Translations under genes and position numbers: made by a program
From: a phage
Strand: one strand, 5' to 3'
DNA: 49,773 bases
Sequence record: PZ715804.1
Shown: positions 6,661 through 49,773 of the stretch, one piece after another
Layout of the letters: each line of letters begins with the position of its first letter
How positions within the stretch are numbered: the stretch's first letter is position 1
Notes under the pieces: model-generated
Told to the model about the DNA's origin: nothing
The model's database searches: none
Seen by the model: the letters and a program-made list of their open reading frames with translations, nothing else

Positions 6661-6664
6661 CGTT

Positions 6665-25510: not shown

Positions 25511-25522
25511 GGAGAAAATTCT

Positions 25523-29493: not shown

Positions 29494-29502
29494 TAAATAC
29501 TA

Positions 29503-29524: not shown

Positions 29525-29544
29525 ATGCCTGCAATATGGTAAAA

Positions 29545-31710: not shown

Positions 31711-31727
31711 TAAATGAGATATAATCA

Positions 31728-31752
31728 GGGCTGTCAATTGACGGCCCTTTTT
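31728..31752 (+). terminator. terminator-RBS junction between terminase and portal genes
   Basis: GGGCTGTC-AATT-GACGGCCC then TTTTT then ATTGGAGGA. Confidence 0.6.
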
Positions 31753-31764
31753 ATTGGAGGAAAC

Positions 31765-33048
31765 ATGAAAATTGTTAAGCATGATGGATATAACGATATT
31801 TTTAACGGCGGTGCAGACGGATCGCCTAAGCCATTCTTTATGTCTGATGCATCATATCACGTCGGTTCTTTCTACAACGACAACGCAACCGCGAAGCGAA
31901 TTGTGGATGTTATCCCGGAAGAGATGGTGACGGCTGGTTTTAAAATGTCAGGCGTTAAGGATGAAAAAGAGTTCAAGTCTTTATGGGATAGCTACAAACT
32001 TGATTCAAGTCTGGTGGATCTTCTTTGTTGGGCGCGACTTTACGGTGGCGCGGCGATGGTGGCAATCATCAACGACAACCGGATGTTAACCAGTCAGGCA
32101 AAGCCTGGAGCCAAACTTGAAGGCGTCCGAGTTTACGATCGATTTGCTATCACTGTTGAAAAGCGAGTCACCAATGCAAGATCCCCTCGCTATGGTGAGC
32201 CTGAAATCTACAAGGTATCCCCTGGCGACAATATGCAGCCGTATCTGATTCATCACTCAAGAGTCTTTATTGCTGATGGTGAGCGAGTAACGCAACAGGC
32301 AAGAAAACAGAATCAAGGATGGGGAGCATCGGTATTGAACAAGTCACTGATTGATGCAATCTGTGACTATGATTACTGTGAATCTCTGGCTACTCAGATC
32401 TTGAGACGTAAGCAACAGGCTGTATGGAAGGTCAAAGGTCTTGCCGAAATGTGTGATGATGATGATGCTCAGTACGCCGCGCGCCTGCGACTTGCTCAGG
32501 TTGATGATAACTCCGGCGTGGGCCGTGCGATCGGTATCGATGCTGAGACTGAGGAATATGACGTTCTCAACTCTGATATCAGCGGAGTTCCTGAGTTCTT
32601 ATCAAGCAAGATGGACCGCATCGTCTCCCTATCCGGGATCCATGAGATTATCATCAAGAATAAGAACGTAGGCGGCGTATCAGCGAGCCAAAACACAGCG
32701 CTTGAGACTTTCTATAAGCTAGTCGATCGCAAGCGCGAGGAAGATTACAGGCCGCTTCTTGAGTTCTTGTTGCCGTTCATTGTTGATGAGGAAGAGTGGT
32801 CGATCGAGTTTGAGCCTTTGTCTGTTCCGAGTAAGAAAGAGGAATCAGAGATCACGAAGAATAACGTTGAGTCAGTCACGAAGGCTATCACTGAGCAAAT
32901 CATCGATCTGGAAGAAGCTCGCGACACGTTGCGATCCATTGCCCCTGAGTTCAAACTCAAGGATGGTAATAACATCAACATTCGCGAACCGGAAGAAACA
33001 ACCGAACCGGAGCCGGGATTAGGGGAGAAGTTAGAAGATGAAAATTAA
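31765..33048 (+). CDS. portal protein (putative)
   Basis: About 427 aa; start behind terminator plus GGAGGA RBS; acidic C-terminus; position after terminase. Confidence 0.6.
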   Translation: MKIVKHDGYNDIFNGGADGSPKPFFMSDASYHVGSFYNDNATAKRIVDVIPEEMVTAGFKMSGVKDEKEFKSLWDSYKLDSSLVDLLCWARLYGGAAMVAIINDNRMLTSQAKPGAKLEGVRVYDRFAITVEKRVTNARSPRYGEPEIYKVSPGDNMQPYLIHHSRVFIADGERVTQQARKQNQGWGASVLNKSLIDAICDYDYCESLATQILRRKQQAVWKVKGLAEMCDDDDAQYAARLRLAQVDDNSGVGRAIGIDAETEEYDVLNSDISGVPEFLSSKMDRIVSLSGIHEIIIKNKNVGGVSASQNTALETFYKLVDRKREEDYRPLLEFLLPFIVDEEEWSIEFEPLSVPSKKEESEITKNNVESVTKAITEQIIDLEEARDTLRSIAPEFKLKDGNNINIREPEETTEPEPGLGEKLEDEN

Positions 33049-33799
33049 TGGCGTTGCAACACAGTGGCGCTATCCTGAAATGAGCGAGCGCGCAATGTCG
33101 CGCTCCCTACAGGATGTTGCAGCCAAACTAACTGAAAAAATGCGTGACGAATTAAAGCCGATGAAATTTGACGCTACTGACGAAGAGATAGATCAGACAG
33201 AAAGGTCATTGCTTGATTACGTCGAATCACTCATCGCTCCGATTATTGGTTCTCTATCATCCGTTGCGCTCGCGATCTATAAATTCAACTCTAAGCAGTG
33301 GCTGCGCATCGCTCGCAATGCTGGAGGTAAGAAGAATCAAGCCGTGATGCTACTAGCCCTGATTGGTCCTACCGCTGCCGAAAGCTGGTACTCAGGACAA
33401 TATAATCTGTGGCGATCGCAGGTGACTACTTCTATCAGGAAATTTGCCGCCAACATGGTTACTGATTTCACTGATAAACTTCGTGCGGCATCCGGTCAGG
33501 GTAAAAGCAAGGATTTTGTTGTTGAACTTGCTAAGGAGCGATTTGGTATTTACCGTAGCTGGGCCAAAAATAGAGCGTCGGGAATTGTCGGAACCTGGAA
33601 CAGTAGACTGATGCGGCAGCGCATAAAAGACGCTGGTGTATCTTACTATTTCTGGCGCGGGGTGATGGATTTACGCGAACGTGAAAAACATGTAAGATGG
33701 GAAGGTAAGCGCATAGCGGTAGATTCCGATCACGTATTCCCGGGTGAAGAATACAACTGCCGCTGTTGGGCTGTTCCAGACTTTTCTACAGGAGATTAA
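33038..33799 (+). CDS. head morphogenesis / minor capsid protein (putative)
   Basis: 253 aa; position after portal; overlaps portal stop. Confidence 0.5.
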   Translation: MKINGVATQWRYPEMSERAMSRSLQDVAAKLTEKMRDELKPMKFDATDEEIDQTERSLLDYVESLIAPIIGSLSSVALAIYKFNSKQWLRIARNAGGKKNQAVMLLALIGPTAAESWYSGQYNLWRSQVTTSIRKFAANMVTDFTDKLRAASGQGKSKDFVVELAKERFGIYRSWAKNRASGIVGTWNSRLMRQRIKDAGVSYYFWRGVMDLREREKHVRWEGKRIAVDSDHVFPGEEYNCRCWAVPDFSTGD

Positions 33800-33801
33800 A
33801 A

Positions 33802-34914
33802 ATGAAGGCAAAGCAAAGATTCGATTCAGTAAAAATCAAGGCTCACTTTGATGATAACGGTTTTTTAGTTGACCGCCCAATCGTGGCGCGAATCGGCGCT
33901 CAGGTTTACAAAACGCCGCACGGCGATCGAGTTGAGTTCCGTCCGGCGTCCGAAGTTTTCAAGCAAGATTCCTTGCAAAGTTTTGCAGGCAAGCCGATAA
34001 CAGTCGGTCACGTAACGGTGACACCCCAAAATGCTAAGGACGTTGTTGTCGGATCGTGTGCTGGCGCTGGTATTGCTTCAGGGGTTGGCGTTGAAGTTCC
34101 TTTGAGTATTTACAGCGACTACGCGATCAGCAAAGCTAAAGCGAAGGAGGCCGGGGAATTATCTGTAGGGTATACGTCGGTAGATATTGATAAGCCCGGC
34201 TGGGGTTCAAATGAGACTGGAGAATATATCTTCGAAGAGGATATGAAACAGGACGAAGCGCCGCCTGAAGGTTGGGTGAAATTCGACGCGGTACAAACTA
34301 ATATCAAGGTCAACCATATTGCCCTAGTTTTTAAAGGTCGTGCGGGAATTGCTAAATTAAATCTTGATGCCGAACAGGAGTTCCCGTATGATAATAACGT
34401 TCAATTAACTAACGAGGACAAGCAAATGAAAAAAATTAAGATCGACTCAGTTGATGTGGAAGTAACCGAAGACGTTGCGAACCATATCGAAAAATTAACC
34501 GCGCAGATTGCCACCATTCAGGGGAAAGCTGATGGCTTCGAAGCTGAGCGCGATGCGCTGAAGGTTAAGGTTGACTCTCTGCCGGAACTTGTGAAGGCCG
34601 AGGTAGAGAAGCAAAAAGCCGATGCCGCCGCACGCGCAGAAGTTACCGCAGTAGCAGAAACCGCAGGCGTCAAACATGATGGTCTTGATATCAAAGACGT
34701 CAAGATTGCCGTAGTTAAAGCCATGCTTGATAAAGATGTTAGTGAAAAATCAGACGCATATATCGACGCTATGTTTGATGTTGCTAAAGATTCTGATATC
34801 ATGGCTATTCAGCGTAAAGCAGTAAAAGGCGACTCTATCGAAGGCGGTAAGCCGGAAGAGAAAAACGACGCCGCGCCTGTTACGCCAAATTCACGTTTAA
34901 GCAAAGTAATGTAA
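33802..34914 (+). CDS. capsid scaffolding-like protein (putative)
   Basis: Start at internal Met (MKAKQRF) behind GGAG RBS; C-terminal half coiled-coil-like and Ala/Lys/Glu rich. Confidence 0.4.
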   Translation: MKAKQRFDSVKIKAHFDDNGFLVDRPIVARIGAQVYKTPHGDRVEFRPASEVFKQDSLQSFAGKPITVGHVTVTPQNAKDVVVGSCAGAGIASGVGVEVPLSIYSDYAISKAKAKEAGELSVGYTSVDIDKPGWGSNETGEYIFEEDMKQDEAPPEGWVKFDAVQTNIKVNHIALVFKGRAGIAKLNLDAEQEFPYDNNVQLTNEDKQMKKIKIDSVDVEVTEDVANHIEKLTAQIATIQGKADGFEAERDALKVKVDSLPELVKAEVEKQKADAAARAEVTAVAETAGVKHDGLDIKDVKIAVVKAMLDKDVSEKSDAYIDAMFDVAKDSDIMAIQRKAVKGDSIEGGKPEEKNDAAPVTPNSRLSKVM

Positions 34915-34925
34915 GGGGAAATATC

Positions 34926-35402
34926 ATGGCACAAATTAATGCATCTTATCAGCGAGATATGGCGATTGCGCTTCCGGGTATGGTTGCGGATACTTCAAAG
35001 TACAATATTGACGGCGCTTGTGTCGTTAATGAAGGTGATGTTCTTGTTGGCGCTGCCGTACAAGTTGTTCAAGCTCAGGCGGTTGATGGTCATAAGTTGG
35101 TTAAGGCTCTTACTACCGGAACCACTCCTTACGGCGTGGCAATCCGATCTCACTGGCAGACTGTTAACGCTCAAAATCAGATGATTTACGAAGATGGCGG
35201 CGCTATCAACGTGATGACTTCAGGCCGAGTATGGATGCTTTCCAAATCCACCGAAGCACCAACTTTCGGCTCTGCCGTTAAACTTGATGTTGATGGTCAG
35301 GAAAAATCTGATGGCACGATCGAAACAACCTGGACCTACGCTGGCGGTTGGACTAAATACAAAGATATTCAGCTTGTTGAGGTTCAGTTGCATCAACTGT
35401 AA
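34926..35402 (+). CDS. capsid accessory/decoration-like protein (paralog 1)
   Basis: 158 aa; shares DTSKYNIDGACV...GAAVQVV...TPYGVAIRS core with the next gene. Confidence 0.4.
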   Translation: MAQINASYQRDMAIALPGMVADTSKYNIDGACVVNEGDVLVGAAVQVVQAQAVDGHKLVKALTTGTTPYGVAIRSHWQTVNAQNQMIYEDGGAINVMTSGRVWMLSKSTEAPTFGSAVKLDVDGQEKSDGTIETTWTYAGGWTKYKDIQLVEVQLHQL

Positions 35403-35418
35403 TTAGCGTTTAATATGG

Positions 35419-35450
35419 GGACTATCTTTTTTTTGGATAGTCCTTTTTTT
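35419..35450 (+). terminator. terminator-RBS junction before decoration paralog 2
   Basis: GGACTATC / GATAGTCC stem then TTTTTTT then ATGGAGAAA. Confidence 0.6.
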
Positions 35451-35560
35451 ATGGAGAAATCATTATGGCTTACGAAAATTTGTTCTTGCGCCCCGCGTGT
35501 CCGGGATGGAGAAATCATTATGGCTTACGAAAATTTGTTCTTGCGCCCCGCGTGTCCGGG
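35451..35560. repeat. exact 55 bp tandem duplication spanning RBS and start codon of decoration paralog 2
   Basis: ATGGAGAAATCATTATGGCTTACGAAAATTTGTTCTTGCGCCCCGCGTGTCCGGG twice, 55/55 identical. Confidence 0.85.
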
Positions 35561-36287: not shown

Positions 36288-36307
36288 CATAAAAACACTT
36301 TGACGCT

Positions 36308-36327
36308 TTAACAAAAAGTGCTATTAT
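36308..36327 (-). promoter_or_regulatory. motif copy in inverted orientation upstream of the major capsid gene
   Basis: Plus-strand TTTAACAAAAAGTGCTATTA, the reverse complement of the motif; a hairpin with CATAAT loop follows. Confidence 0.4.
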
Positions 36328-36330
36328 TGA

Positions 36331-36358
36331 AGCCGTGAACATAATCACGGCTTTTTTA
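36331..36358 (+). terminator. terminator before the major capsid gene
   Basis: AGCCGTGA-ACATAA-TCACGGCT then TTTTTT. Confidence 0.65.
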
Positions 36359-36378
36359 TTAACTACGGAGAAGTAATC

Positions 36379-37338
36379 ATGACTACTAAAAAATTTGATG
36401 AAGCAGATAAAAGCAATGTTGAAATGTATCTGATCCAGGCTGGCGTAAAACAGGATGCAGCCGCAACGATGGGTATCTGGACCGCTCAGGAACTACACCG
36501 CATCAAGAGTCAGTCCTATGAAGAAGACTACCCGGTCGGCTCCGCTCTACGAGTATTCCCGGTTACAACCGAACTCTCTCCGACCGACAAGACGTTTGAG
36601 TACATGACCTTTGATAAGGTTGGTACTGCTCAGATTATCGCTGACTATACCGATGACCTGCCTCTGGTTGATGCACTTGGTACTTCTGAATTTGGTAAGG
36701 TGTTCCGTTTGGGTAACGCGTATCTGATCTCAATCGACGAAATCAAAGCAGGTCAGGCAACTGGTCGCCCACTGTCAACCCGTAAGGCGAGCGCGTGCCA
36801 GTTGGCGCATGATCAGCTTGTTAACCGCCTGGTGTTCAAAGGTTCCGCACCGCACAAGATTGTGTCCGTGTTTAACCATCCGAACATCACTAAAATTACC
36901 TCCGGTAAGTGGATTGATGCATCTACTATGAAGCCGGAAACTGCGGAAGCTGAGCTAACTCAAGCGATCGAAACCATCGAGACGATTACTCGGGGTCAGC
37001 ACCGCGCAACCAACATCCTGATCCCGCCTTCCGTTCGTAAGGTTTTGGCGATTCGTATGCCTGAGACAACCATGTCTTATCTGGACTATTTTAAGTCTCA
37101 GAACTCCGGTATCGAAATCGACTCTATCGCAGAGCTTGAGGATATTGACGGCGCAGGCACCAAAGGCGTACTGGTGTACGAAAAGAATCCGATGAACATG
37201 TCCATCGAGATCCCGGAAGCATTTAATATGCTGCCAGCACAACCGAAAGACTTGCACTTTAAAGTGCCTTGCACTTCTAAGTGTACTGGTCTTACAATTT
37301 ATCGCCCGATGACTATTGTCTTAATCACTGGCGTGTAA
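36379..37338 (+). CDS. major capsid protein (putative)
   Basis: 319 aa; position and size; strong RBS; flanked by terminators. Confidence 0.6.
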   Translation: MTTKKFDEADKSNVEMYLIQAGVKQDAAATMGIWTAQELHRIKSQSYEEDYPVGSALRVFPVTTELSPTDKTFEYMTFDKVGTAQIIADYTDDLPLVDALGTSEFGKVFRLGNAYLISIDEIKAGQATGRPLSTRKASACQLAHDQLVNRLVFKGSAPHKIVSVFNHPNITKITSGKWIDASTMKPETAEAELTQAIETIETITRGQHRATNILIPPSVRKVLAIRMPETTMSYLDYFKSQNSGIEIDSIAELEDIDGAGTKGVLVYEKNPMNMSIEIPEAFNMLPAQPKDLHFKVPCTSKCTGLTIYRPMTIVLITGV

Positions 37339-37345
37339 TATTATA

Positions 37346-37372
37346 GGGGCTAACTTAGTTAGTCCCTTTTTT
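37346..37372 (+). terminator. terminator-RBS junction after the major capsid gene
   Basis: 9 bp stem with one G-U then TTTTTT then ATTGGAGAAA. Confidence 0.65.
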
Positions 37373-37387
37373 ATTGGAGAAATCAAA

Positions 37388-37675
37388 ATGGCTAAAGAAA
37401 AAACTGTTGTTATCGTAAACGTTGGTGTAGCTCTTCAGATGTTCCGTCTTGAAGATGGTTCCTTTGCTAAAGTTCTTCCAGATGAAGAGGTCACGCTTCC
37501 GGCGTCCGTTCTTGATTTGCCTGGCCTGCGTTGCTTAATTGCTCGCGAAGAAATCGAAGTTAAAGACGACAGTGCAACCAACCGCAAAATCCGCGCTGAA
37601 ATGGCAAAGATCACTAAGCCAGATCCGTGGGATAGCAAAAGCGTTAAAGAGCTTGAGGACGGCGGCGAATATTAA
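37388..37675 (+). CDS. hypothetical head-associated protein
   Basis: 95 aa between two terminator-RBS junctions. Confidence 0.5.
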   Translation: MAKEKTVVIVNVGVALQMFRLEDGSFAKVLPDEEVTLPASVLDLPGLRCLIAREEIEVKDDSATNRKIRAEMAKITKPDPWDSKSVKELEDGGEY

Positions 37676-37681
37676 TCATCA

Positions 37682-37706
37682 AGGCGCTCATGTAGCGCCT
37701 TTTTTT
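37682..37706 (+). terminator. terminator-RBS junction
   Basis: AGGCGCT-CATGT-AGCGCCT then TTTTTT. Confidence 0.7.
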
Positions 37707-37719
37707 ATGGGGGGTAATT

Positions 37720-38130
37720 ATGAATCAAGAAACTTTAATTGCAGCTGTTGAGCAAATGCGAAAGCTGGTTCCGGCACTTCGTAAGGTTCCAGACGAAACG
37801 CTTTATGCGTGGGTAGAAATGGCTGAGCTTTTTGTATGCCAGAAGACCTTTAAAGACGCATACGTCAAAGCGATCGCTCTTTATGCATTACACCTTGCTT
37901 TCCTTGATGGGGCGCTAAAAGGTGAAGATGAGGATCTGGAATCGTACTCACGCCGCGTTACGTCATTCTCACTGAGCGGTGAATTTAGCCAGACTTTCGG
38001 AGAGGTTACGAAGAACCAGTCAGGGAACATGATGCTTTCTACGCCGTGGGGTAAGATGTTCGAACAGCTTAAAGCGAGACGCCGTGGTAGATTCGCATTA
38101 ATGACAGGACTCCGTGGAGGATGCCACTAA
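37720..38130 (+). CDS. head-tail connector protein (gp6-like, putative)
   Basis: 136 aa; position; N-terminal pattern LIAAVEQMRKLVPALRKVPDE. Confidence 0.45.
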   Translation: MNQETLIAAVEQMRKLVPALRKVPDETLYAWVEMAELFVCQKTFKDAYVKAIALYALHLAFLDGALKGEDEDLESYSRRVTSFSLSGEFSQTFGEVTKNQSGNMMLSTPWGKMFEQLKARRRGRFALMTGLRGGCH

Positions 38131-38501
38131 TGAACTACTCACAGATTGAAAGAATGGCTCGCAAAGGCGTGGCTTTCTTCACCGATCCGTCAAGACCTAT
38201 GAACCTGATAAAACAAGGTGAATACGGATATGATGAAAACGGATTCGAGATCCCACCGATGGAACAGGTTATTCCAATATCCGGCGCGACGAGAAGACCG
38301 AACGCGCGTGAGATTGACGGGGAAACTATCCGCACCTCAGATATTTTGGGGATCTTCAATAATGATCATGAAATAAACGAAGGTGACTATATAGAGATTG
38401 ATGGCATTCGTCATGTTGTCGTTGATGCTCGCCCGGTTCAGGCGTCACTGGAACCAGTTGCCTATCGTCCAGTGTTGCGGAGGGTATCAGTCGGTGGCTA
38501 A
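38121..38501 (+). CDS. head-tail adaptor / head closure protein (putative)
   Basis: 126 aa; position. Confidence 0.4.
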   Translation: MPLMNYSQIERMARKGVAFFTDPSRPMNLIKQGEYGYDENGFEIPPMEQVIPISGATRRPNAREIDGETIRTSDILGIFNNDHEINEGDYIEIDGIRHVVVDARPVQASLEPVAYRPVLRRVSVGG

Positions 38502-39325: not shown

Positions 39326-39326
39326 T

Positions 39327-39995: not shown

Positions 39996-40007
39996 ATACC
40001 ATCCATA

Positions 40008-40034
40008 GGGGGCTTGCGTCCCCTTATTCATTTC
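40008..40034 (+). terminator. terminator after the major tail protein gene
   Basis: GGGGGC-TTGC-GTCCCC (one G-U) then U-rich tract. Confidence 0.5.
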
Positions 40035-40069
40035 TGTAAAATCATCCTATCAACTCTATTCACTTAACT

Positions 40070-40089
40070 TTTAACAAAAAGTGCTATCA
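40070..40089 (-). promoter_or_regulatory. motif copy in inverted orientation abutting the tail chaperone RBS
   Basis: Plus-strand TTTTAACAAAAAGTGCTATC then CCAATCAGGAG RBS. Confidence 0.4.
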
Positions 40090-40108
40090 ACCAATCAGGA
40101 GAAACATC

Positions 40109-40426
40109 ATGGCTAAATTCAATTTCGTGTTGGGCCAGCTTCCAGACTTCAAACTTCCGGTGACGTTCACCATGCCAAACGGCGAGGATGCAACTATTAT
40201 TTTTACAGTGCGCCACCTTTCCAGTAAAGAAGTGCAAGATATGTATGCGAAGCAGGGCGAAATGAATGATAGCGATTTCATCACTAAGATCGCGTCAGGC
40301 TGGAATCTGGAAGAAGAATTTAACGAAGAGAATACGCGTAAACTGGTACAGTATTATCCTTCCGCAGCGTACAACCTGACGGCAACTTACATCAAGGCGC
40401 TCGCCGGACACCGCGCAAAAAACTAA
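40109..40426 (+). CDS. tail assembly chaperone (lambda G-like, zero-frame product)
   Basis: 105 aa; ends at TAA 40424-40426 directly after slippery A_AAA_AAC. Confidence 0.7.
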   Translation: MAKFNFVLGQLPDFKLPVTFTMPNGEDATIIFTVRHLSSKEVQDMYAKQGEMNDSDFITKIASGWNLEEEFNEENTRKLVQYYPSAAYNLTATYIKALAGHRAKN

Positions 40427-40743
40427 AAAGGGCGGTTTATCTGTTATATCAGAAACCGCCGACAGAAGAGCAATTACGATCGGTTGGCCTCAGTCTTTCT
40501 GACTATGAAGACGAGGAACCGGAAACGATAATCGGCGATACTGAAATGGTGAAGGCGTGGAATGTTTTTACGTCAATGCTCACTCAGTGGAGAAGTTCAG
40601 GCGCTGGAGCTTATGGTCTTGACTATAATGTTTTGCCTATGTTGTTCAAAATCTATAAAATAGAAGATGAAGAACTGGCATTGCAGGACGTTAGAATCAT
40701 GGAAGCGAAAGCGCTTGAAATGGTTGCTAAGCAAAACAACTAA
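40109..40743 (+). CDS. tail assembly chaperone frameshift fusion (lambda GT-like), made by -1 shift at 40417-40423
   Basis: -1 frame is open from the slippery site to TAA 40741-40743 with no start codon of its own until 40546; stem-loop 7 nt downstream of the heptamer. Confidence 0.6.
40417..40460 (+). other. programmed -1 ribosomal frameshift site: slippery heptamer A_AAA_AAC (40417-40423) plus downstream stem-loop (40431-40460)
   Basis: Heptamer is in zero-frame phase at the last two codons of the chaperone ORF; stem GGCGGTTT/AAACCGCC starts 7 nt downstream. Confidence 0.6.
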
Positions 40744-40765
40744 GCCGCCGTTTGGCGGTTTTTTC
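40744..40765 (+). terminator. terminator-RBS junction between chaperone and tape measure genes
   Basis: CCGCC-GTTT-GGCGG then TTTTTT. Confidence 0.65.
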
Positions 40766-40781
40766 GTATATAGGGGGTTAT

Positions 40782-43655
40782 ATGGTTGATAAGGTAGCAG
40801 GTCTGTCGCTTGACGTTGATGTGTCAACAGTGCAGCGCGCCGTCAAGTCACTGAAAGAGTTTTCAAAGGCCAACGACCAGGCCGCTGATTCTATGGGTTC
40901 TTTAATCAATGAGTCAGAGGTTGCAAAACAGAAGGCCAAAGAACACGCTGAACAACTAAGGCGCCAGAGAAAAGAGTATGAGGCCGTGGAGAAGGCAATC
41001 GATCCTACAGTATCAAAAATGGAAAGGTTGAAGATTGCATCTCAGCAGCTTGATAAACTCTGGCAGCAGGGAGTCGTTCCAGATGAGACGTTTTTCCGTT
41101 TGGGTGAAATGCTGGATCTGCAAAACGCAAAACTTGCTCGCAGCCGGGCTATGCTTACGGAAGAAGGTCAGGCGGCATTGCAGGAAGCGAAAGCAAAAGA
41201 GCAGGCGGCAGCACGAAGCAAGGCGTTCATGGATGCCCTGAATGGTCAAGTTAACGCGATCGGCAAGACTCATGCTGAATTGATGGAACTGAAAGCGGCT
41301 GAGCTTGGTTTATCGAAAGAAGCAGCACCACTAATCGCAAAACTTAAAGATCAAGGCCGAGCTATGAATGCAGCAGGTATTAGCGCCGGGGAATACAGGC
41401 AAGCAATGCGAATGCTTCCTGCACAGATTACCGACGTCGTTACATCTCTTGCGTCCGGCATGCCAGTTTGGATGGTTGCCATCCAGCAAGGCGGTCAAAT
41501 CAAGGACTCGTTCGGCGGGATTGGTAATACGTTTAAAGTGTTGCTGAGTTATATTAATCCAGTCACAGCAGGTATTGGCGTTCTTGTTGGTTCGTTAGGT
41601 CTTCTGGCGAAAGCTGGTTATGACTCTTACAAGTCAATAACTGATATTCAGAATGCGCTTATTGAGACTGGCGGTTATGCAGGTGTTACGGCTGAAGATC
41701 TTGATTCAGTGTCTAAAAAGATCGCGCAGACAAGTAACTCAACCATTGGGAGTATTCGCGAGATTGTAACGGAGTTGGCAAGTTCTGGTAAGTACACCCG
41801 CGAGCAGATCCAGAACATCACTAAGGCTACCGCAGAGTGGTCAGCGTCAACAGGAAAATCAGCAAGTCAAATTATTTCTGAGTTCGACAAAATCGCAAGC
41901 GATCCGGTAAAAGGTCTGAAGAAGTTAAATGAGCAATATAATTTCCTTGAAAAAGGGCAGCTTACCTATATCGATACATTAAGCCGGACGAAAGGAGAAA
42001 CTGAGGCAGTATCTGAAGCAACGAAATTATTCGCCGACGTAATGGAAAAGCGAATGAAGTCAATAGCGGATAATGCTACCCCTCTGGAAAAAATGTGGAA
42101 CGATATTAAACAATGGGCTTCGGACGCGTGGGGATGGGTGGGTGATCATACACTTGGGGCGCTAAACCTGATTATTGATGTGGTTCAGGGTACAGTGATT
42201 CAGGTAAAAATGATTCTTGCGAAAGGTGACGAATACATCTCAAACTTTATTGCCTCTGCGATTAAGGCTACACAGTCTCTTCCTGGTATGAGTGATTTCG
42301 GCGCTGATGTACTGAAGGAGCAGGAGAATATTGTAAAAAGTTCTCGCGACAACTACGATCAGTTATCTTCAGAGCTTGACGCTATTAACGCTCGTGTAGA
42401 AAAAGGAGAGATGGGATACATTGAAGCAATGAGGCAGCGTCGCACTCTTGAAAAGCAGTACAGCGAGGAAACTAAGGAGGCAATAAGGAAAGAAGCAGAA
42501 GAGATCGAGAAGCGAAACCGAGAACGAAATAAGCAGTCGAAAATTGTACGCTCACCGACAGAGCAATTCGACAAGGAGTTAATTTCACTCAAGGCTCAAC
42601 TTAAGGTATTGCAGGAGCACAAGGAGATCGGGCAAAAACTTTCCGCACAGAGAAAGGCGTTGTTTACAACTGAGGCTACGATCGCTGTTCTTCGCGAAGC
42701 CAGCTCTAAGCGTCAGTTGTCTGCGGAAGAAAAAGCGTTGCTGGCAAGTCAGGAGAGAGTTATTGAGCTTGCAAAACAGAAGGCCGAGATTGGCGATCAG
42801 ATTGTTAAGCAACAACAGTTGAATGATCTTACCGATAAATCTCTGAAGTTTGTCAATGAGATGACGGCGGCGACAGAACAGCTTAACGCGTCACGCGGTC
42901 TTAGCACGCGCGAAATGGAACGACAAGCGGAACTGGCTAAAATAACCACTGATTACATCAACTCTGGAGGTAGTGAGGGAGACGAAAAACTCCAGAACAT
43001 GATTAAGGCGCAAAATGATTACTACGCTGCGGAAGATGCCAAGCGTGCTGACTGGTTAGCTGGTGCTGAAAGTGCTTTTGCTGATTACGGTGATGCAGCA
43101 ATGGATATGTACGGCAATGTTAACGATATCGCGTCAAGTGCACTTAACGGAATGTCAGATATGATGGTTCAATTTCTGACCACAGGAAAAGCGAACTTTG
43201 GGGACTTTGCGAAAAATATCATCGGCATGATTATAAAGATGATTGCTCAGATGGTAATCTTCAATACGATCTCAGGCATGATGGGCGGTAAGACGTGGAG
43301 CTTTGCTGGAGGGGCGTCGTCTGGTGCTTCTGCGGCATCACAGGCAACCCCTACACCTGCCGCTTCTGTTTTTAGATCTGCATCATCCGGCGGGGCCGCT
43401 GTATCACTTGCTGCCGCAGCGGGTAGCGTGGCAACCTCTGGATTCAACGCATCAAACTCGGCGCCAAAGGCGATAAACCATTCAGGAGGTGGGACGGTCG
43501 TTGATGTTAGGGGTATGGAGGTTAAAGTTGACAACGGTTCAGATCCGAGAGGAATTTCTCAGGGCGTAGAAATGATGTTCAAAAAAATGATTCGAGAGTC
43601 TTGTTCACAGGGCGGTGAGGTTTACAATTACATTCAGGAAAAAACAGGAGGCTAA
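40782..43655 (+). CDS. tail tape measure protein
   Basis: About 957 aa; coiled-coil-rich; Gly/Ala/Ser-rich C-terminal region; start behind terminator plus AGGGGG RBS. Confidence 0.85.
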
Positions 43656-43657
43656 TA

Positions 43658-44011: not shown

Positions 44012-44027
44012 CACTTCATGACAAAAG

Positions 44028-44049
44028 CCCGCCTTGCGCGGGTTTTTTT
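44028..44049 (+). terminator. terminator after the gpM-like gene
   Basis: CCCGC-CTTGC-GCGGG then TTTTTTT; same hairpin as at 46207. Confidence 0.7.
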
Positions 44050-44090
44050 GTAGCTGTAGAATGGTTGCAACTAAACAAGAGGAAAAGATA

Positions 44091-44873
44091 ATGAGCGAAA
44101 ACAAAAAACTTTATGATGAAGAAAGCGGGAAGAGCCTGTTTCACAACTGCCTTCAATCACTATACCCTGGAGAGATAATCACTCTGATTGAAGTTGATGG
44201 CAGCAAGTTCGGCGCTCAGGTGTACCGTTTCCACGGGGAAAATATCCAGTACACTCCAGAAGAAATCATGCAGGCACAGCAAACCGGAACGCTACCGCCG
44301 AAAGAAATCACCTTCCGTGGCGAGCAATACGGCGCGCGACCTTTCGGTATATCCGGGATCTCGTTCGACAGTTCCGGCAAGGCCACAAAGCCACAATTAA
44401 CGGTGGCAAACATCGATAGTCGCGTATCTGCGATGATTCGTGCATATAACGGACTAATGCAAGCTAAGGTGACTATCTGGATCACTCAAAAGGACTTAAT
44501 TCAACCTAACGGCTCAATCGCTGACGGAGCTTACCGAAAACTGGTATACTATATCGAACGCCCGAGCTATGTCGATAAGAGTGTCGCCAGGTTCGATCTA
44601 ACGTCTCCTTATGATATGGATGGAATCATGATACCGTCACGACTAACTCAAAGCGTTTGCTATTGGGCGCAGAGGGGATGGTATAAAACCGGGAAGGGGT
44701 GCGGATACAACGGGCAAAATGGTTACTTCGATAAAGACAATAATCCGGTAGACGATCCTTCGCTGGATTTTTGCCCAGGAACGGTAACGGCCTGCCGCCT
44801 GAGATTCGGCGCAAACAATGAATTGGATTTTGGCGGTTGCGCAGTCGCTTCACTACAGAGGAAAAATCAATGA
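44091..44873 (+). CDS. minor tail protein (lambda gpL homolog)
   Basis: Start at ATG behind AAGAGGAAAAG RBS (track start is an upstream TTG inside the terminator); GKATKPQLTVANIDSRV and Cys-rich C-terminus as in lambda L. Confidence 0.8.
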   Translation: MSENKKLYDEESGKSLFHNCLQSLYPGEIITLIEVDGSKFGAQVYRFHGENIQYTPEEIMQAQQTGTLPPKEITFRGEQYGARPFGISGISFDSSGKATKPQLTVANIDSRVSAMIRAYNGLMQAKVTIWITQKDLIQPNGSIADGAYRKLVYYIERPSYVDKSVARFDLTSPYDMDGIMIPSRLTQSVCYWAQRGWYKTGKGCGYNGQNGYFDKDNNPVDDPSLDFCPGTVTACRLRFGANNELDFGGCAVASLQRKNQ

Positions 44874-46200: not shown

Positions 46201-46206
46201 AATTAA

Positions 46207-46229
46207 CCCGCCTTGCGCGGGTTTTTTTT
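46207..46229 (+). terminator. terminator before the J-like gene
   Basis: CCCGC-CTTGC-GCGGG then TTTTTTTT. Confidence 0.7.
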
Positions 46230-46277
46230 CGCCTGTATAATGAGTCCACTGATAAATAGCACAAAAAGGTAAACATC

Positions 46278-49200
46278 ATGATTCAAAAAGTGATAAGCGG
46301 ATCTAAAGGTGGGTCACAGAAGCCTCATAACCCAGTTGAGATGGAGGACAATCTAATCTCAATCAACAAAATCAAGATCCTGTTAGCTGTATCTGATGGT
46401 GAAATTGACGAAACATTCAGCCTAAAGCAGTTGATGTTTAACTCAGTTCCGGTGCAAAACGAGGATGGATCATTCAACTTCGAAGGGGTAAGGGCTGAGT
46501 TCAGGCCGGGAACTCAGACGCAGGAATACATCAAGGGCATGGAAGATAGCTCAAGTGAGGTAACTGTAAATCGTGAGGTTACTACCGATAACCCATACAC
46601 GATCTCAGTAACCAATAAAACACTATCGGCAATACGCATCAAAATGTTTATGCCTCGAGGTGTACGAATTGAAAGCAATGGTGATAAAAACGGCGTTCGA
46701 GTTGAGTACGAGGTGCAACAAGCGGTTGATGGCGGTTCGTTTGAGACTGTTCTTACTGACGTAATCGAAGGTAAAACAATGTCAGGTTATGATCGAAGCC
46801 GTCGCGTAAACCTGCCTAACTTCAACAATCAGGTAATATTCAGAGTTGTTCGAAAGACGCCTGATTCCAATGACTCGAATGTCGTTGATGCAATCCAGGT
46901 AAGAAGCTATGCCGAGGTCATTGATGCCAAATTCCGATATCCTCTGACTGGTCTTCTTTTCGTAGAGTTCGATTCGAAGATGTTCCCAAACCAGTTACCT
47001 ACGATCTCAATTCGTAAGCGCTGGAAGATTGTAAGCGTTCCGTCGAACTACGACCCAGAATCGCGAACATACAACGGCAATTGGGATGGCACTTTCAAAA
47101 AAGCATGGACGAACAATCCGGCGTGGGTTCTTTATGACCTGATGATTAATCAGCGTTACGGCTTGGATCAGAAAGAGCTTGGTATCGCTGTCGATAAATG
47201 GGCGCTCTACGAGGCTGCGCAATATTGCGATCAGATGGTTCCTGATGGGAAGGGCGGGACGGAACCTCGATACCTTTGCGACGTGATAATCCAGTCTCAG
47301 ACTGACGCTTACAAGGTTATTCGAGATATTTGCTCAATCTTTCGAGGTATGAGCTTTTGGAATGGCGAAAGCATTTCGGTAATCATCGATAGGCCGCGTG
47401 AGCCTGCGTACATCTTCACTAACGACAACGTGGTTAATGGTGACTTCTCCTACACGTTTGCAAGCGAAAAGAGCATGTACACGACGTGTAATGTGATGTT
47501 TGACGACGAGCAAAACATGTATCAGCAGGACGTTGAGCCAGTATTCGATCGTGAGGCTACTCTACGGTTCGGGAACAACGTAACGAGCATTACAGCGATC
47601 GGCTGCACACGTCGAAGCGAGGCCAACCGACGCGGGAGATGGATTCTGAAAACTAACCTCCGCAGCACTACGGTAAACTTCGCTACCGGACTTGAGGGTA
47701 TGATTCCGACAATCGGAGATGTTGTGGCAATAGCTGATAACTTCTGGTCAAGTAACTTGACGATGAACCTATCAGGGCGCTTGCTCGAAGTATCCGGTAG
47801 TCAGATTTTCTTGCCGCTCCGGGTGGATGCACGCGCGGGTGACTTTATTATCGTAAATAAGCCAGATGGCAAGCCCGTGAAGCGCACAATATCAAGTGTT
47901 AGTGCGGATGGTAAGACTATAGAGGTTAACATTGGCTTTGGCTTTCCTGTGAAGCCTAACACGGTATTCGCTATCGACCGCACCGACATTGCGTTACAGC
48001 AGTACGTCGTGACAAAAATCGATAAGGGCGATGATGATGAGGAATTTACCTACAAAATAACGGCGGTGGAGTACGATCCTAACAAGTACGATGAGATTGA
48101 TTACGGAGTTAATATCGACGACCGACCGACGAGCATCGTTGAACCAGATCAGATCCCTAGACCGGAAAACGTGCAAGTGTCCTCAGAGTCACGAATCGTC
48201 CAGGGGATGAGCGTAGAAACGATGATTGTTAGCTGGGATAAAGTGCCGTACGCAGTTTTCTATGACGTCCAGTGGCGAAAGGATAACGGCAACTGGCAAA
48301 ATGTACCGCAGACAGCAAACAAAGAGGTATACGTTGAAGGTATTTACGCTGGCAACTATCAGGTTCGCGTTCGCTCCGTCGCTGGTTCTGGTACAACTTC
48401 CGGCTGGTCAAATATCGTCGCAGCGACGTTGACAGGCAAGCAAGGAGAGCCAGGGAGGCCGATTAACCTTACAGCTACAGATGATGTTGTTTTTGGTATC
48501 CGTACAAAATGGGGGTTCTCTGATGGTTCTGGAGATACGGCCTATACAGAGTTGCAACAGTCACCAGATGGAACAGTGGATAACGCAAGTTTGCTTTCTT
48601 TGATTCCGTACCCGCAGCATGAGTATTATCACTCACCGATGCCTGGAGGGAATATTGTGTGGTATCGGGTAAGGACGGTTGATAGGATCGGTAACGTGTC
48701 TCAGTGGACTGATTTTGTCAGAGGTATGGCATCAACAAACGTTGACGATATCATTGGGGGGATTTCTGTCGATATCGAAAACTCGCCGGGTTACGAGTGG
48801 CTTGTTGATAACGCAACCGACAACGCGGCGCAGAACGCAGCGAACGCAGAGGCAGCAATTGAGAACGCTCTAGCTAATGACAAAGACGCGATCTACATGA
48901 AGAAGGAGAACGGAAAACGAAAAGCAGAGTACACCAAATCACTGCAACTTATTGCTGATGAGACTCAGGCGCGAGTAACAGCAGTTGAGCAGTTAAGGGC
49001 AAGTTTTGGTGATCAGATTAGTGCAAGCAATAGCGAATTGCGTGAAGTTATCGCAACTGAGACTGGAGCGCTATCGCGTGAAATTGACCAACTCAGGGCA
49101 GAGATTGGTGATGATATTCAGGCAAGTTTGACTGATATCAGAGAGGCTATAGCAAACGAGACTGAGGCGAGAACGCAAGCTGACTTAACACTTAGCGCGC

Positions 49201-49697
49201 GGCTTGGGGATAACGAGGCGGCACTTGCTCAAAAATTAGACTCTTGGAGCAATGCCAGTTCTACCGGGGCAATGTACGGCGTCAAGCTGGGTCTGAAATA
49301 CAACGGACAGGAATATAGCGCAGGCATGGCTATGTCTCTGATTGGTTCCGGCGCAGCTGTTAAGGCGCAAATTCTATTCGAGGCGTCGCGATTTGCAATC
49401 ATGACAGGGATGAACGGTCAGACTCAGTATCCTTTCGTTGTTGAAGGTAATCAGGTGATTCTTAATAGCGCCATTATTAAGAACGGATTTATCACGAATG
49501 CGATGATTGGTAATGTTATTCAATCGAATAACTATGTCGTTAACAAGGCTGGCTGGAGACTTGACAAGGGTGGAACATTAGAAAACTACGGAAGTGACGT
49601 TGAGGGTGCAATGAAGCAAACTAATACCACAATATCTGTTAGGGATGCGAGTGGTCGCCTGAGGGTTCAGATTGGCAGGTTGACTGGTTCATGGTAA
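46278..49697 (+). CDS. central tail fibre / host specificity protein (lambda gpJ homolog)
   Basis: 1139 aa; size and position after M-L-K-I homologs; fibronectin-III-like middle and coiled-coil C-terminal region. Confidence 0.85.
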   Translation: MIQKVISGSKGGSQKPHNPVEMEDNLISINKIKILLAVSDGEIDETFSLKQLMFNSVPVQNEDGSFNFEGVRAEFRPGTQTQEYIKGMEDSSSEVTVNREVTTDNPYTISVTNKTLSAIRIKMFMPRGVRIESNGDKNGVRVEYEVQQAVDGGSFETVLTDVIEGKTMSGYDRSRRVNLPNFNNQVIFRVVRKTPDSNDSNVVDAIQVRSYAEVIDAKFRYPLTGLLFVEFDSKMFPNQLPTISIRKRWKIVSVPSNYDPESRTYNGNWDGTFKKAWTNNPAWVLYDLMINQRYGLDQKELGIAVDKWALYEAAQYCDQMVPDGKGGTEPRYLCDVIIQSQTDAYKVIRDICSIFRGMSFWNGESISVIIDRPREPAYIFTNDNVVNGDFSYTFASEKSMYTTCNVMFDDEQNMYQQDVEPVFDREATLRFGNNVTSITAIGCTRRSEANRRGRWILKTNLRSTTVNFATGLEGMIPTIGDVVAIADNFWSSNLTMNLSGRLLEVSGSQIFLPLRVDARAGDFIIVNKPDGKPVKRTISSVSADGKTIEVNIGFGFPVKPNTVFAIDRTDIALQQYVVTKIDKGDDDEEFTYKITAVEYDPNKYDEIDYGVNIDDRPTSIVEPDQIPRPENVQVSSESRIVQGMSVETMIVSWDKVPYAVFYDVQWRKDNGNWQNVPQTANKEVYVEGIYAGNYQVRVRSVAGSGTTSGWSNIVAATLTGKQGEPGRPINLTATDDVVFGIRTKWGFSDGSGDTAYTELQQSPDGTVDNASLLSLIPYPQHEYYHSPMPGGNIVWYRVRTVDRIGNVSQWTDFVRGMASTNVDDIIGGISVDIENSPGYEWLVDNATDNAAQNAANAEAAIENALANDKDAIYMKKENGKRKAEYTKSLQLIADETQARVTAVEQLRASFGDQISASNSELREVIATETGALSREIDQLRAEIGDDIQASLTDIREAIANETEARTQADLTLSARLGDNEAALAQKLDSWSNASSTGAMYGVKLGLKYNGQEYSAGMAMSLIGSGAAVKAQILFEASRFAIMTGMNGQTQYPFVVEGNQVILNSAIIKNGFITNAMIGNVIQSNNYVVNKAGWRLDKGGTLENYGSDVEGAMKQTNTTISVRDASGRLRVQIGRLTGSW

Positions 49698-49703
49698 TAT
49701 CAA

Positions 49704-49730
49704 GGGCATCGAGAGATGCCCTTTTCTTTT
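49704..49730 (+). terminator. terminator-RBS junction after the J-like gene
   Basis: GGGCATC-GAGA-GATGCCC then TTTTCTTTT then GGAGG. Confidence 0.7.
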
Positions 49731-49742
49731 GGAGGATTTATT

Positions 49743-49773
49743 ATGGCGTACGGTATATCAACTTGGGACGCAA
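49743..49773 (+). CDS. 5' end of a gene truncated by window end (MAYGISTWDA...); in frame with window start if circular
   Basis: ATG behind terminator plus GGAGG RBS; 31 nt to window end. Confidence 0.35.
   Translation, partial: MAYGISTWDA

What the first reader, a model, noticed from the sequence alone, without database searches (positions are those of the whole stretch)
31728..49735. Late operon built from terminator-RBS fused junctions, including two identical terminators
Between many late genes a G/C-rich hairpin plus T-run is followed directly by (a)TTGGAG(G/A) and a start codon (31728-31767, 35419-35467, 37346-37390, 37682-37722, 40744-40784, 49704-49745; also 25477-25525 in the early block). 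The terminators at 44028-44049 and 46207-46229 share the same CCCGC-CTTGC-GCGGG stem-loop. The T-run of the terminator doubles as the A/U-rich region upstream of the Shine-Dalgarno, which suggests partial read-through attenuation setting the stoichiometry of capsid and tail proteins.
Basis: partly seen in the sequence, partly recalled or inferred. Interest (0 to 1): 0.5.

Follow-up and report, generated by a model that had tools for sequence, protein, structure and literature searches.

The report
Conserved terminators punctuating T1 late genes
The hairpins are real, evolutionarily conserved transcription terminators between the head and tail genes of a T1-like coliphage, but most have been annotated in phage T1 records and described as 'transcriptons' since 2004, so the finding is correct yet ordinary; the one extra is that the two 'identical' terminators also carry a conserved promoter.

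Summary
The window is a T1-like coliphage (Tunavirus; 99.9% identical to JMPW1, about 96% to T1). It is a perfect 7-11 bp G/C-rich stem plus T-run, followed 16-24 nt later by a start codon with GGAG or GGGGG in between. The late region holds 12 such sites against 0.8 expected, and 10 of them lie in the 3.7% of the DNA that is intergenic. Across about 90 Drexlerviridae loci a hairpin plus T-run occupies the same junctions in 58-100% of distinct sequences, against 0.2% of control windows. Stem sequences differ and show compensatory changes.

Most of these sites are already annotated as rho-independent terminators in T1 and KpV522 records, and the T1 late region was published as 'transcriptons'. 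The read-through idea is partly supported. Fused junctions leave no room for a promoter, so downstream genes need read-through. But this is not one attenuated operon. The two 'identical' terminators are terminator-promoter cassettes, with TTGCGC in the loop and an invariant TAnAAT exactly 17 nt downstream. The capsid gene also has its own conserved promoter. No transcript data exist. Interest is low.

The parts
29502..29537 (+). Hairpin AACCCGCTTCGGCGGGTT, T7, then GCCTG-CAATAT.
   Evidence: It aligns with the M|L and I|J cassettes. T1 annotates a terminator at the homologous 8322-8344. The -10 is weak (3 of 6).
31727..31767 (+). terL|portal junction: hairpin 31727-31748, T-run, SD GGAGG 31756-31760, ATG 31765. 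It is preceded by TATAAT at 31720-31725.
   Evidence: -16.7 kcal/mol, z -4.6. Conserved with TATAAT abutting the hairpin in Tunavirus, Warwickvirus, Hanrivervirus and Nouzillyvirus; Webervirus has a hairpin without a T-run. Not annotated in AY216660.1.
35417..35467 (+). Decoration | Ig-like decoration gene junction: hairpin 35417-35445, T-run, SD GGAG 35453-35456, ATG 35465. In this window the true gene start is the second copy at 35520, because of a 55-bp duplication.
   Evidence: T1 annotates terminator 14237-14269 abutting RBS 14270-14273.
36300..36381 (+). Capsid-gene promoter followed by a hairpin: -35 TTGACG 36300-36305, a 16-nt spacer holding the reversed DR 36308-36324, TGc-TATTAT -10 at 36322-36327, hairpin 36329-36354, T-run, SD 36367-36370, ATG 36379.
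   Evidence: a 10/12 match, tied with two minus-strand sites as best in the region, with TG; promoter and terminator are annotated in T1 and KpV522.: -35 and -10 are conserved in five genera. The predicted transcript start falls inside the 5' arm of the hairpin (inference).
37345..37390 (+). Terminator directly after the major capsid gene, 6 nt after its stop codon, fused to the SD (37376-37379) and ATG (37388) of orf46.
   Evidence: Present in 61 of 63 distinct relatives, with 38 different hairpin sequences. Annotated in T1 as 16107-16137 and in KpV522.
37681..37722 (+). orf46|connector junction: hairpin 37681-37701, T-run, GGGGGG, ATG 37720.
   Evidence: Found in 50 of 62 distinct relatives, and the others keep the hairpin with a poorer T-run. 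T1 annotates 16445-16470.
40005..40111 (+). Major tail | chaperone G junction: hairpin 40005-40027 with a weak T-run, reversed DR 40071-40087, SD, ATG 40109.
   Evidence: Found in 53 of 58 distinct relatives. Annotated in NC_005833.1 as 18770-18796 and in KpV522.
40742..40784 (+). G-T chaperone | tape-measure junction: hairpin 40742-40761 overlapping the TAA stop codon, T-run, GGGGG 40773-40777, ATG 40782.
   Evidence: Found in 44 of 45 distinct relatives, all of them fused. Covariation: 97.7% of cells paired, 4 of 7 pairs with compensatory changes, 0 of 500 shuffles reach the observed score.
44023..44093 (+). tipM|tipL terminator-promoter cassette: hairpin 44023-44047 (core 44028-44042), loop TTGCGC 44034-44039 as -35, T7 inside the 17-nt spacer, -10 TAGAAT 44057-44062, SD, ATG 44091.
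   Evidence: The hairpin is present in 60 of 60 distinct relatives. Of 48 long forms, 46 have a -10 matching at 5 of 6 or better and 31 have TnG 16-18 nt upstream (30 at exactly 17). The 12 short forms are fused directly to the RBS.
46205..46280 (+). tipI|tipJ terminator-promoter cassette: hairpin 46205-46223, loop TTGCGC 46213-46218, T8, -10 TATAAT 46236-46241, DR-like ATAGCAC 46256-46262, ATG 46278.
   Evidence: in 55 distinct sequences with 54% mean identity, the only invariant columns are the loop G (46215) and T, A, A, A, T of the -10; 52 of 53 have a -10, and 50 of 53 have TnG at exactly 17 nt.
49702..49745 (+). tipJ|orf32 junction: hairpin 49702-49723, interrupted T-run, GGAGG 49731-49735, ATG 49743.
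   Evidence: -16.0 kcal/mol, z -3.4. T1 annotates terminator 28568-28594 abutting RBS 28595. Found in 52 of 74 distinct relatives.
963..988 (.). Terminator at the end of the late block, after orf31 and convergent with the cor gene on the minus strand: AAGCCCCTTTCGGGGCTT plus a T-run.
   Evidence: T1 annotates a terminator at 29602-29624.
25477..25525 (+). Fused terminator-RBS junction in the early block: hairpin 25477-25502, TTTCTTTTGGAG, ATG 25523.
   Evidence: -19.1 kcal/mol. T1 annotates terminator 4001-4034 abutting RBS 4035-4038.

Best explanation
The structural-gene block of this T1-like phage is transcribed by host RNA polymerase. It is punctuated by about a dozen canonical intrinsic (Rho-independent) terminators, placed at module boundaries that are conserved across the family Drexlerviridae. 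They come in two architectures.

(A) Terminator fused to the ribosome-binding site. These sit at terL|portal, decoration|Ig-decoration, capsid|orf46, orf46|connector, GT|tape measure and J|orf32. The stem ends 16-24 nt before the start codon, so no promoter fits between them. These terminators must therefore be leaky, and each one steps down the mRNA level of the genes behind it while leaving a stabilising 3' hairpin on the upstream message. Their stems begin 0-16 nt after the upstream stop codon, inside the reach of a terminating ribosome. Leakiness is therefore probably set partly by translation of the upstream gene.

(B) Terminator overlapping a sigma70-type promoter. At tipM|tipL and tipI|tipJ, and probably upstream of terS, the hairpin loop supplies a -35-like TTGCGC, the T-run lies in the 17-nt spacer, and a conserved TAnAAT follows. 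Transcription is stopped and then re-started. Upstream of the capsid gene the order is reversed: the -10 abuts the hairpin, so transcripts from that promoter should lack the 5' arm and escape termination.

The result is the mosaic of 'transcriptons' already proposed for T1. It gives very high capsid-gene expression bracketed by terminators and lower expression of the tape-measure and tail-tip genes.

Shown here: the sequence anatomy, the non-randomness, and the conservation and covariation. Inferred: termination, read-through, promoter activity and ribosome gating.
For: - Identity of the phage.
- Hairpin anatomy and folding.
- Enrichment and intergenic placement: (12 sites against 0.83 expected; 10 of 12 in 3.7% of the DNA).
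- Positional conservation in about 90 loci. The fractions of distinct sequences with a hairpin plus T-run are post-capsid 61/63, pre-tape-measure 44/45, M|L 60/60 and I|J 53/58. The background is 2 of 1309 random coding windows.
- Compensatory changes in the pre-tape-measure hairpin.
- Two junction classes that do not overlap in length. Stem end to ATG is 15-26 nt at the fused junctions (pre-TMP, pre-connector) and 43-63 nt at I|J; M|L itself is bimodal, 17-19 nt or 37-47 nt. The long forms have a conserved -10 and 17-nt spacing to the loop TTG.
- Capsid promoter conserved in five genera and annotated in T1 and KpV522.
- Prior annotation of the terminators. Published 'transcripton' description. 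Terminator list for phage TLS.
- Stop-to-stem distances, median 3-6 nt. The experiment showing that lambda tR2 is almost fully repressed a few bp after a stop codon and reaches full efficiency only beyond about 30 bp: (PMC4824070).
- Slightly shorter T-runs at fused junctions than at promoter-linked ones (5.6 against 6.4).
Against: - No transcript 5' or 3' ends, RNA-seq or in vitro termination data for any T1-like phage were found. Termination, its efficiency and promoter activity are therefore all unmeasured.
- The -35-like hexamer matches the consensus in only 3 of 6 positions. The cassette promoters are not annotated in the T1, KpV522 or TLS records.
- Column-wise covariation was clear for one hairpin only. 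For the I|J and post-capsid hairpins it was inconclusive, because the stems vary in length and MAFFT misaligns them.
- The stems are stable with reasonable U-tracts and could be efficient terminators. In that case passive leakiness would not be enough to express the genes behind several of them.
- The sequences compared are phylogenetically related, so the counts overstate the number of independent observations.
Confidence: 0.7

Rival explanations
1. Pure transcripton model. Each hairpin is an efficient full stop, and every downstream gene block is transcribed from its own promoter, so no functionally relevant read-through occurs.
For: This is the published reading of the T1 late region. Conserved promoters do follow or precede four or five of the terminators.
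Against: At six or seven junctions the T-run abuts the SD and the stem ends only 16-24 nt before the ATG. No promoter can fit there. No sigma70-like site scoring better than 9/12 lies inside orf46, or inside the 3' ends of the capsid or GT genes. The TLS authors themselves found only three convincing promoters and would not assert transcriptons.
Confidence: 0.12
2. Active antitermination. A phage-encoded protein or RNA element makes host RNA polymerase terminator-resistant late in infection, in the manner of lambda Q/N or HK022 put. The hairpins then act as timing gates that block early read-through, rather than as stoichiometry setters.
For: About 12 stable terminators lie in 20 kb. Genes such as the major tail protein and tipJ lie behind several of them. 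Most early proteins have no known function, so a novel factor cannot be excluded.
Against: No Pfam antiterminator family is found among 30 early and middle proteins. There are no Rfam hits at gathering threshold anywhere in the window. The expert T1 re-annotation, which used HHpred, names no antiterminator. Conserved internal promoters would be unnecessary if polymerase were made terminator-proof.
Confidence: 0.12
3. The hairpins are mainly RNA-level elements, not transcription stops. They would act as processing or stability signals (3' protection after endonucleolytic cleavage) or as modulators of initiation at the adjacent RBS.
For: Terminator hairpins are known to stabilise upstream mRNA (PMC10204088 text). 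The hairpins sit right at the 5' edge of the ribosome-binding region. In two sites the U-run can weakly pair with the SD (sites 49698 and 25472).
Against: A T-run directly 3' of the stem is conserved in nearly all relatives. That is the signature of termination and is not needed for stability or processing. The stems are far shorter than RNase III substrates (own knowledge). The SD is unpaired in 9 of 11 MFE structures.
Confidence: 0.05

Closest known systems
Phage T1 'transcriptons' (Roberts, Martin & Kropinski 2004, PMID 14972552, as summarised in PMC11447400) and the terminator annotation in AY216660.1 and NC_005833.1
   Same: These are the same elements. The homologous T1 sites are annotated as rho-independent terminators, several of them abutting the annotated RBS. 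The late region is described as modules flanked by terminators and containing RpoD promoters.
   Different: The window is a JMPW1-like strain (99.9% identical). The terL|portal hairpin and the -10/-35 elements overlapping the M|L and I|J terminators are not annotated in the records I could read. The 2004 paper itself could not be read, so I cannot say whether it listed them.
Terminator lists of other Drexlerviridae: TLS (21 terminators, PMC11447400 Table S1), KpV522 (GenBank record), and the Rogunavirus phages AHP24 etc. (18-21 terminators, PMC4070988)
   Same: The junctions are the same: post-capsid, pre-connector, post-major-tail, pre-tape-measure, M|L, I|J and post-J.
   Different: Those were single-genome predictions. 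The family-wide positional conservation, the covariation and the split into fused and promoter-linked forms were computed here.
Partial terminator after the major capsid gene in T7-like phages (T-phi after gene 10). This comparison rests on my own knowledge.
   Same: A hairpin terminator lies immediately after the most highly expressed structural gene. Read-through is needed for the downstream tail genes, and the upstream mRNA is stabilised.
   Different: T7 uses its own RNA polymerase and has one main late terminator. Here host RNA polymerase meets about a dozen.
Lambda late operon with Q antitermination. This comparison rests on my own knowledge.
   Same: A long head-and-tail gene block is transcribed by host polymerase across terminators.
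   Different: No Q-like protein, qut or put element was detected. Conserved internal promoters are present here, whereas lambda relies on a single pR'.
Ribosome-proximal repression of intrinsic terminators (Li et al. 2016, PMC4824070)
   Same: The stop-codon-to-hairpin distances here (0-16 nt in the window, median 3-6 nt in relatives) fall in the range where tR2 was nearly fully or partly repressed.
   Different: That system was an engineered reporter with the lambda tR2 terminator. Nothing has been measured for these phage terminators.

Membership tests
Intrinsic (Rho-independent) terminator | G/C-rich perfect stem of about 5-11 bp with a 3-8 nt loop | tested here: met
   all 11 late sites, with MFE of the folded junction segments from -11.5 to -16.7 kcal/mol.
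Intrinsic (Rho-independent) terminator | Run of U directly 3' of the stem | tested here: met
   4-9 T at 10 of 11 sites. Site 40005-40027 has only a weak, interrupted run. The median run in relatives is 5-7.
Intrinsic (Rho-independent) terminator | Located downstream of a stop codon, on the coding strand, in intergenic DNA | tested here: met
   10 of 12 sites lie in the 3.7% of the region that is intergenic, and stems start 0-16 nt after the stop (41 nt at the pre-capsid site).
Intrinsic (Rho-independent) terminator | Structure maintained in evolution (compensatory changes, positional conservation) | tested here: met
   The column-wise test was inconclusive for two other hairpins because of misalignment.
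Intrinsic (Rho-independent) terminator | RNA 3' ends or transcript release at the U-tract, in vivo or in vitro | not testable with these tools
   No T1-family transcript-end data were found.
Sigma70-type promoter (M|L and I|J cassettes, and the pre-capsid promoter) | -10 hexamer TAnnnT conserved among relatives | tested here: met
   T, A, A, A, T are invariant in 55 distinct I|J sequences; a match of 5 of 6 or better in 52 of 53 I|J and 46 of 48 long M|L forms. One search agrees.
Sigma70-type promoter (M|L and I|J cassettes, and the pre-capsid promoter) | -35 hexamer TTGnnn at 17 +/- 1 nt | tested here: met
   TnG at exactly 17 nt in 50 of 53 I|J and 30 of 48 long M|L forms. The hexamer TTGCGC matches the consensus at only 3 of 6 positions. 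The pre-capsid promoter is TTGACG-16-TATTAT.
Sigma70-type promoter (M|L and I|J cassettes, and the pre-capsid promoter) | Mapped primary 5' end and RNA polymerase dependence | not testable with these tools
   No data were found.
Transcription attenuator with alternative (antiterminator) RNA structure | A competing upstream pairing that can replace the terminator hairpin | tested here: not met
   with about 100 nt of upstream context, the terminator hairpin is kept in both the MFE and the centroid at all six fused sites, and no competing helix uses its 5' arm.
Lambda-type antitermination system (Q, N, or put RNA) | A recognisable antiterminator protein or RNA | tested here: not met
   no antiterminator Pfam family in 30 early and middle proteins; no Rfam family. 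Most of these proteins are of unknown function, so a novel factor is not excluded.

The most novel reading that the evidence does not exclude
The family-wide terminator cassettes are dual-use DNA. The terminator's loop is at the same time the -35 element of a re-initiation promoter, at a fixed 17-nt spacing with the T-run as spacer. Three paralogous copies exist here: pre-terS, M|L and I|J. The promoter-less fused terminators would be gated by the ribosome finishing the upstream gene. Late-protein stoichiometry in Drexlerviridae would then be set by a hard-wired mix of stop-and-restart insulators and translation-coupled leaky terminators, with no phage-encoded transcription factor. This architecture is not annotated in the T1, TLS or KpV522 records I could read.
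Probability: 0.4. Interest if true: 0.4.

Novelty: already known. Interest (0 to 1): 0.2.

Why it matters
It matters little as a discovery. The terminators and the modular 'transcripton' layout of the T1 late region have been in the literature and in GenBank since 2004.

What this analysis adds is modest:
- Family-wide evidence, from about 90 loci, that the terminators are under selection at fixed junctions.
- A clean split of junctions into fused (promoter-less) and promoter-linked forms.
- Conservation evidence for unannotated promoters embedded in the two 'identical' terminators.

These give a concrete, testable map for anyone doing Term-seq or cappable-seq on T1-like phages. Such phages are common laboratory contaminants and therapy candidates, and their late transcription has never been mapped. 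The cassettes are also compact terminator-promoter parts that could be used in synthetic biology.

Tried and rejected
- Rfam at gathering threshold over the whole window found nothing.
- The 12-mer TTTTTATTGGAG is not enriched as a motif in its own right. The similarity between junctions is just T-run plus SD.
- The built-in lenient terminator scan gave only weak enrichment, 26 against 18.4. A stricter criterion (stem energy of -9 kcal/mol or lower) was needed to see the signal.
- Column-wise covariation on MAFFT alignments of the I|J and post-capsid junctions was inconclusive. The stems differ in length and register, so I relied on per-sequence hairpin detection with a coding-window control instead.
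- A classical attenuator with an alternative structure was rejected.
- RNase III-type processing sites were rejected: the stems are too short, and a conserved T-run is not needed for processing (own knowledge).
- A mobile or repeated element (REP- or MITE-like) was rejected. The stem sequences differ between junctions and lineages while the positions stay fixed. Only the three CCCGC/GCGGG cassettes are paralogous.
- A Pfam search for antiterminators found none.
- Literature searches for T1 or Drexlerviridae transcriptomics found none.
- The T1 genome paper itself is not held. What it says is taken second-hand from PMC11447400.

Full report
IDENTITY. The window is a circular permutation of a T1-like coliphage genome (Tunavirus, Drexlerviridae). 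Bases 31000-41000 are 99.9% identical to Escherichia phage JMPW1 and 96.7% to T1. Whole-genome BLAST against T1 record AY216660.1 is colinear, and every late T1 protein maps at 95-100% identity.

Reading the named coordinates, the terminator scan and RNA folding all show perfect 7-11 bp G/C-rich hairpins with 3-8 nt loops. The MFE of each 41-58-nt junction segment is -11.5 to -19.1 kcal/mol. Each hairpin is followed by a T-run, then GGAG or GGGGG, and a start codon 16-20 nt after the stem.
- With a strict criterion (stem energy of -9 kcal/mol or lower, and at least 5 T in 8) the late block has 12 plus-strand sites against 0.83 +/- 0.88 in 100 dinucleotide shuffles.
- Ten of the 12 lie in the 747 nt (3.7%) that are intergenic.
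- Every late intergenic gap of 38 nt or more contains one, and every gap without one is 24 nt or shorter.
- The 12-mer TTTTTATTGGAG alone is not enriched. The resemblance between junctions is simply T-run plus Shine-Dalgarno.
- The stem-loop CCCGCCTTGCGCGGG is indeed identical at 44028-44042 and 46207-46221. The similarity extends over 36 nt at 86% identity (family D9).

IT IS ALREADY KNOWN.
- The curated T1 record AY216660.1 annotates rho-independent terminators at the homologous positions, several directly abutting the annotated RBS: 14237-14269 with RBS 14270, 16107-16137 with 16138, 16445-16470 with 16471, 28568-28594 with 28595, and 4001-4034 with 4035.
- The RefSeq T1 record NC_005833.1, whose ST gene tags suggest it keeps the original annotation, carries the same 'rho-independent transcriptional termination site' features.
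- Klebsiella phage KpV522 (Webervirus, 57% capsid-protein identity) annotates terminators at the same junctions and a promoter upstream of the capsid gene.
[quoted passage not shown] It lists 21 terminators for TLS, including the M|L and I|J ones.
- Rogunaviruses were reported with 18-21 terminators.
- I could not read the 2004 T1 paper itself.

I compared 11 GenBank relatives from seven lineages and 80 IMG/VR loci retrieved with a tipL protein alignment. I located the junctions by tblastn. The table gives the fraction of distinct junction sequences that carry a hairpin (-7 kcal/mol or lower) plus a T-run.

| Junction | Distinct sequences with hairpin + T-run | Different hairpin sequences |
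|---|---|---|
| Post-capsid | 61/63 | 38 |
| Pre-tape-measure | 44/45 | 21 |
| M\|L | 60/60 | 29 |
| I\|J | 53/58 | 25 |
| Post-major-tail | 53/58 | 29 |
| Pre-connector | 50/62 | 27 |
| Post-J | 52/74 | 39 |
| Pre-capsid | 42/72 | 18 |

- The background in random 85-nt coding windows of the same loci is 2 of 1309.
- For the pre-tape-measure hairpin, 97.7% of alignment cells pair and 4 of 7 pairs show compensatory changes (for example G-C 29 and C-G 13). None of 500 shuffles reaches the covariation score, and slid controls pair at only 32-67%.
- The same column-wise test was inconclusive for the I|J and post-capsid hairpins, because stems of different length are misaligned.
- The myovirus outgroup phiEt88, which has a related head module, has tight junctions. 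Even so, it keeps a small hairpin plus T-run after its capsid gene.

TWO ARCHITECTURES. The distance from stem end to start codon falls into two classes that do not overlap.
- Pre-tape-measure and pre-connector junctions are always fused, at 15-26 nt.
- I|J junctions are always long, at 43-63 nt.
- M|L junctions are either fused (17-19 nt, 12 sequences) or long (37-47 nt, 47 of the 48 long forms).
- The long forms contain a -10-like hexamer. In the I|J alignment (55 distinct sequences, 54% mean identity) the only invariant columns are the G of the loop TTG (46215) and T, A, -, A, A, T at 46236-46241.
- In I|J, 52 of 53 have a match of 5 of 6 or better to TATAAT, and 50 of 53 have TnG exactly 17 nt upstream, inside the hairpin loop.
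- M|L behaves the same way: 46 of 48 have a -10, 30 have the 17-nt spacing, and the -10 columns are conserved.
- So the two 'identical terminators' are terminator-promoter cassettes in which the loop TTGCGC is the -35 and the T-run lies in the spacer.
- A third, weaker copy lies upstream of terS at 29502-29537.
- Upstream of the capsid gene the order is reversed. There is a strong sigma70 match (TTGACG-16-TGcTATTAT, 36300-36327), conserved in five genera and annotated in T1 and KpV522. It ends 1 nt before hairpin 36329-36354.
- The expected start site, about 7 nt after the -10, falls in the 5' arm of that hairpin. Transcripts from this promoter should therefore lack the hairpin, while transcripts arriving from upstream are terminated. 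This is inference.
- A TATAAT abutting the terL|portal hairpin is likewise conserved in four genera, but it has no good -35 in this window.

MECHANISM.
- At the fused junctions no promoter can fit between the T-run and the SD, so the genes behind them need read-through. These genes include the connector-to-major-tail block behind two such terminators, and the tape-measure gene.
- Simple attenuation cannot set the stoichiometry alone. The capsid protein is the most abundant virion protein (general knowledge), yet its gene lies behind three terminators and depends on its own promoter.
- The terminators are not classical attenuators. With 100 nt of upstream context the hairpin persists in the MFE and centroid, and nothing competes for its 5' arm.
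- A plausible source of leakiness is the stop codon. Stems start 0-16 nt after it in the window and a median of 3-6 nt after it in relatives. In E. coli reporters, lambda tR2 was almost completely repressed a few bp after a stop codon and reached about 0.9 efficiency only beyond 30 bp.
- Fused T-runs are slightly shorter than promoter-linked ones (5.6 against 6.4). The sequences are not phylogenetically independent, so this is weak support.
- Variable read-through at phage terminators, and stabilisation of upstream mRNA by terminators, are documented for other phages.

RIVALS.
- Full-stop transcriptons are contradicted by the promoter-less fused junctions.
- Active antitermination cannot be excluded, because most early proteins are of unknown function. 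However, no Pfam antiterminator and no Rfam element is present, and conserved internal promoters argue against it.
- Purely RNA-level roles do not explain the conserved T-run.

WHAT IS MISSING. No transcriptome, Term-seq or in vitro data for any T1-like phage were found. Termination efficiency, promoter activity and ribosome gating therefore all remain inferences.

VERDICT. The feature is already known. Interest is low (0.2). There is a modest, testable addition: terminator-embedded promoters, and the split between fused and promoter-linked junctions.

Noticed in passing
window 35451-35560: There is a perfect 55-bp tandem duplication (35451-35505 and 35506-35560). It duplicates the SD, the ATG and the first 13 codons of the Ig-like decoration gene. 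The real gene starts at the second copy (35520). The first-copy ATG (35465) opens a 35-codon out-of-frame ORF. None of the 50,697 phage records holds the duplication junction, not even the 99.9%-identical JMPW1. It could be a real variant or an assembly artefact.
   Followed up: partly
window, about 20 copies, e.g. 9644(-), 18880(+), 21028(-), 22789(-), 36308(+), 40071(+), 29544, 46256: The direct repeat ATAGCACnnnTTGnTAA(AA) occurs 15 times at up to 3 mismatches, against 0.33 expected. In the early regions it lies about 22 nt upstream of an extended -10 (tTGaTAtAgT) that sits inside a G/C-rich inverted repeat. It is in reversed orientation upstream of the capsid and chaperone genes. It lies between the -10 and the RBS upstream of terS and tipJ. 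The repeat is known from the TLS paper (18 intergenic copies), where its function is stated to be unknown.
   Followed up: partly
window 37250-37290: A strongly structured nested hairpin lies within the 3' end of the capsid gene (GCACUUUAAAGUGCCUUGCACUUCUAAGUGU). The 126-nt segment 37250-37375 folds with z = -5.65.
   Followed up: no
window versus T1 (L001 5465-5959, 42028-42510, 46085-46624): Three HNH endonuclease genes of T1 have no homologue in this window, or only a 25-residue remnant. This is insertion/deletion polymorphism of homing endonucleases.
   Followed up: no
window 4016-5572 (-): The homologue of T1 ORF26 (728 aa; its MikeNSara and NJS1 counterparts are annotated 'tail fiber protein') is 518 aa here. 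Only the N-terminal 142 residues match T1 (81% identity). This suggests a swapped distal (possibly receptor-binding) part.
   Followed up: no
window 38944-38962 and 35880-35902: Two terminator-like hairpins lie inside coding sequence, one in the orf43/tail-terminator overlap and one in the Ig-like decoration gene. They are probably chance or weak internal sites. Their conservation was not checked.
   Followed up: no
L003, L008, L010 (Webervirus) terL|portal and protease|decoration junctions: Weberviruses carry G/C-rich hairpins without a T-run at the terL|portal junction. They also have an extra hairpin at the protease|decoration junction, which is a tight 11-nt gap in T1-like phages.
   Followed up: no
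window 6617-6665 (-): The same fused layout occurs on the minus strand upstream of the primase gene: GCGTAG...CTACGC, then TTTTTTATTTGGAG. T1 annotates terminator 35930-35969 abutting the RBS there. The 15-nt loop kept it out of my scan.
   Followed up: partly
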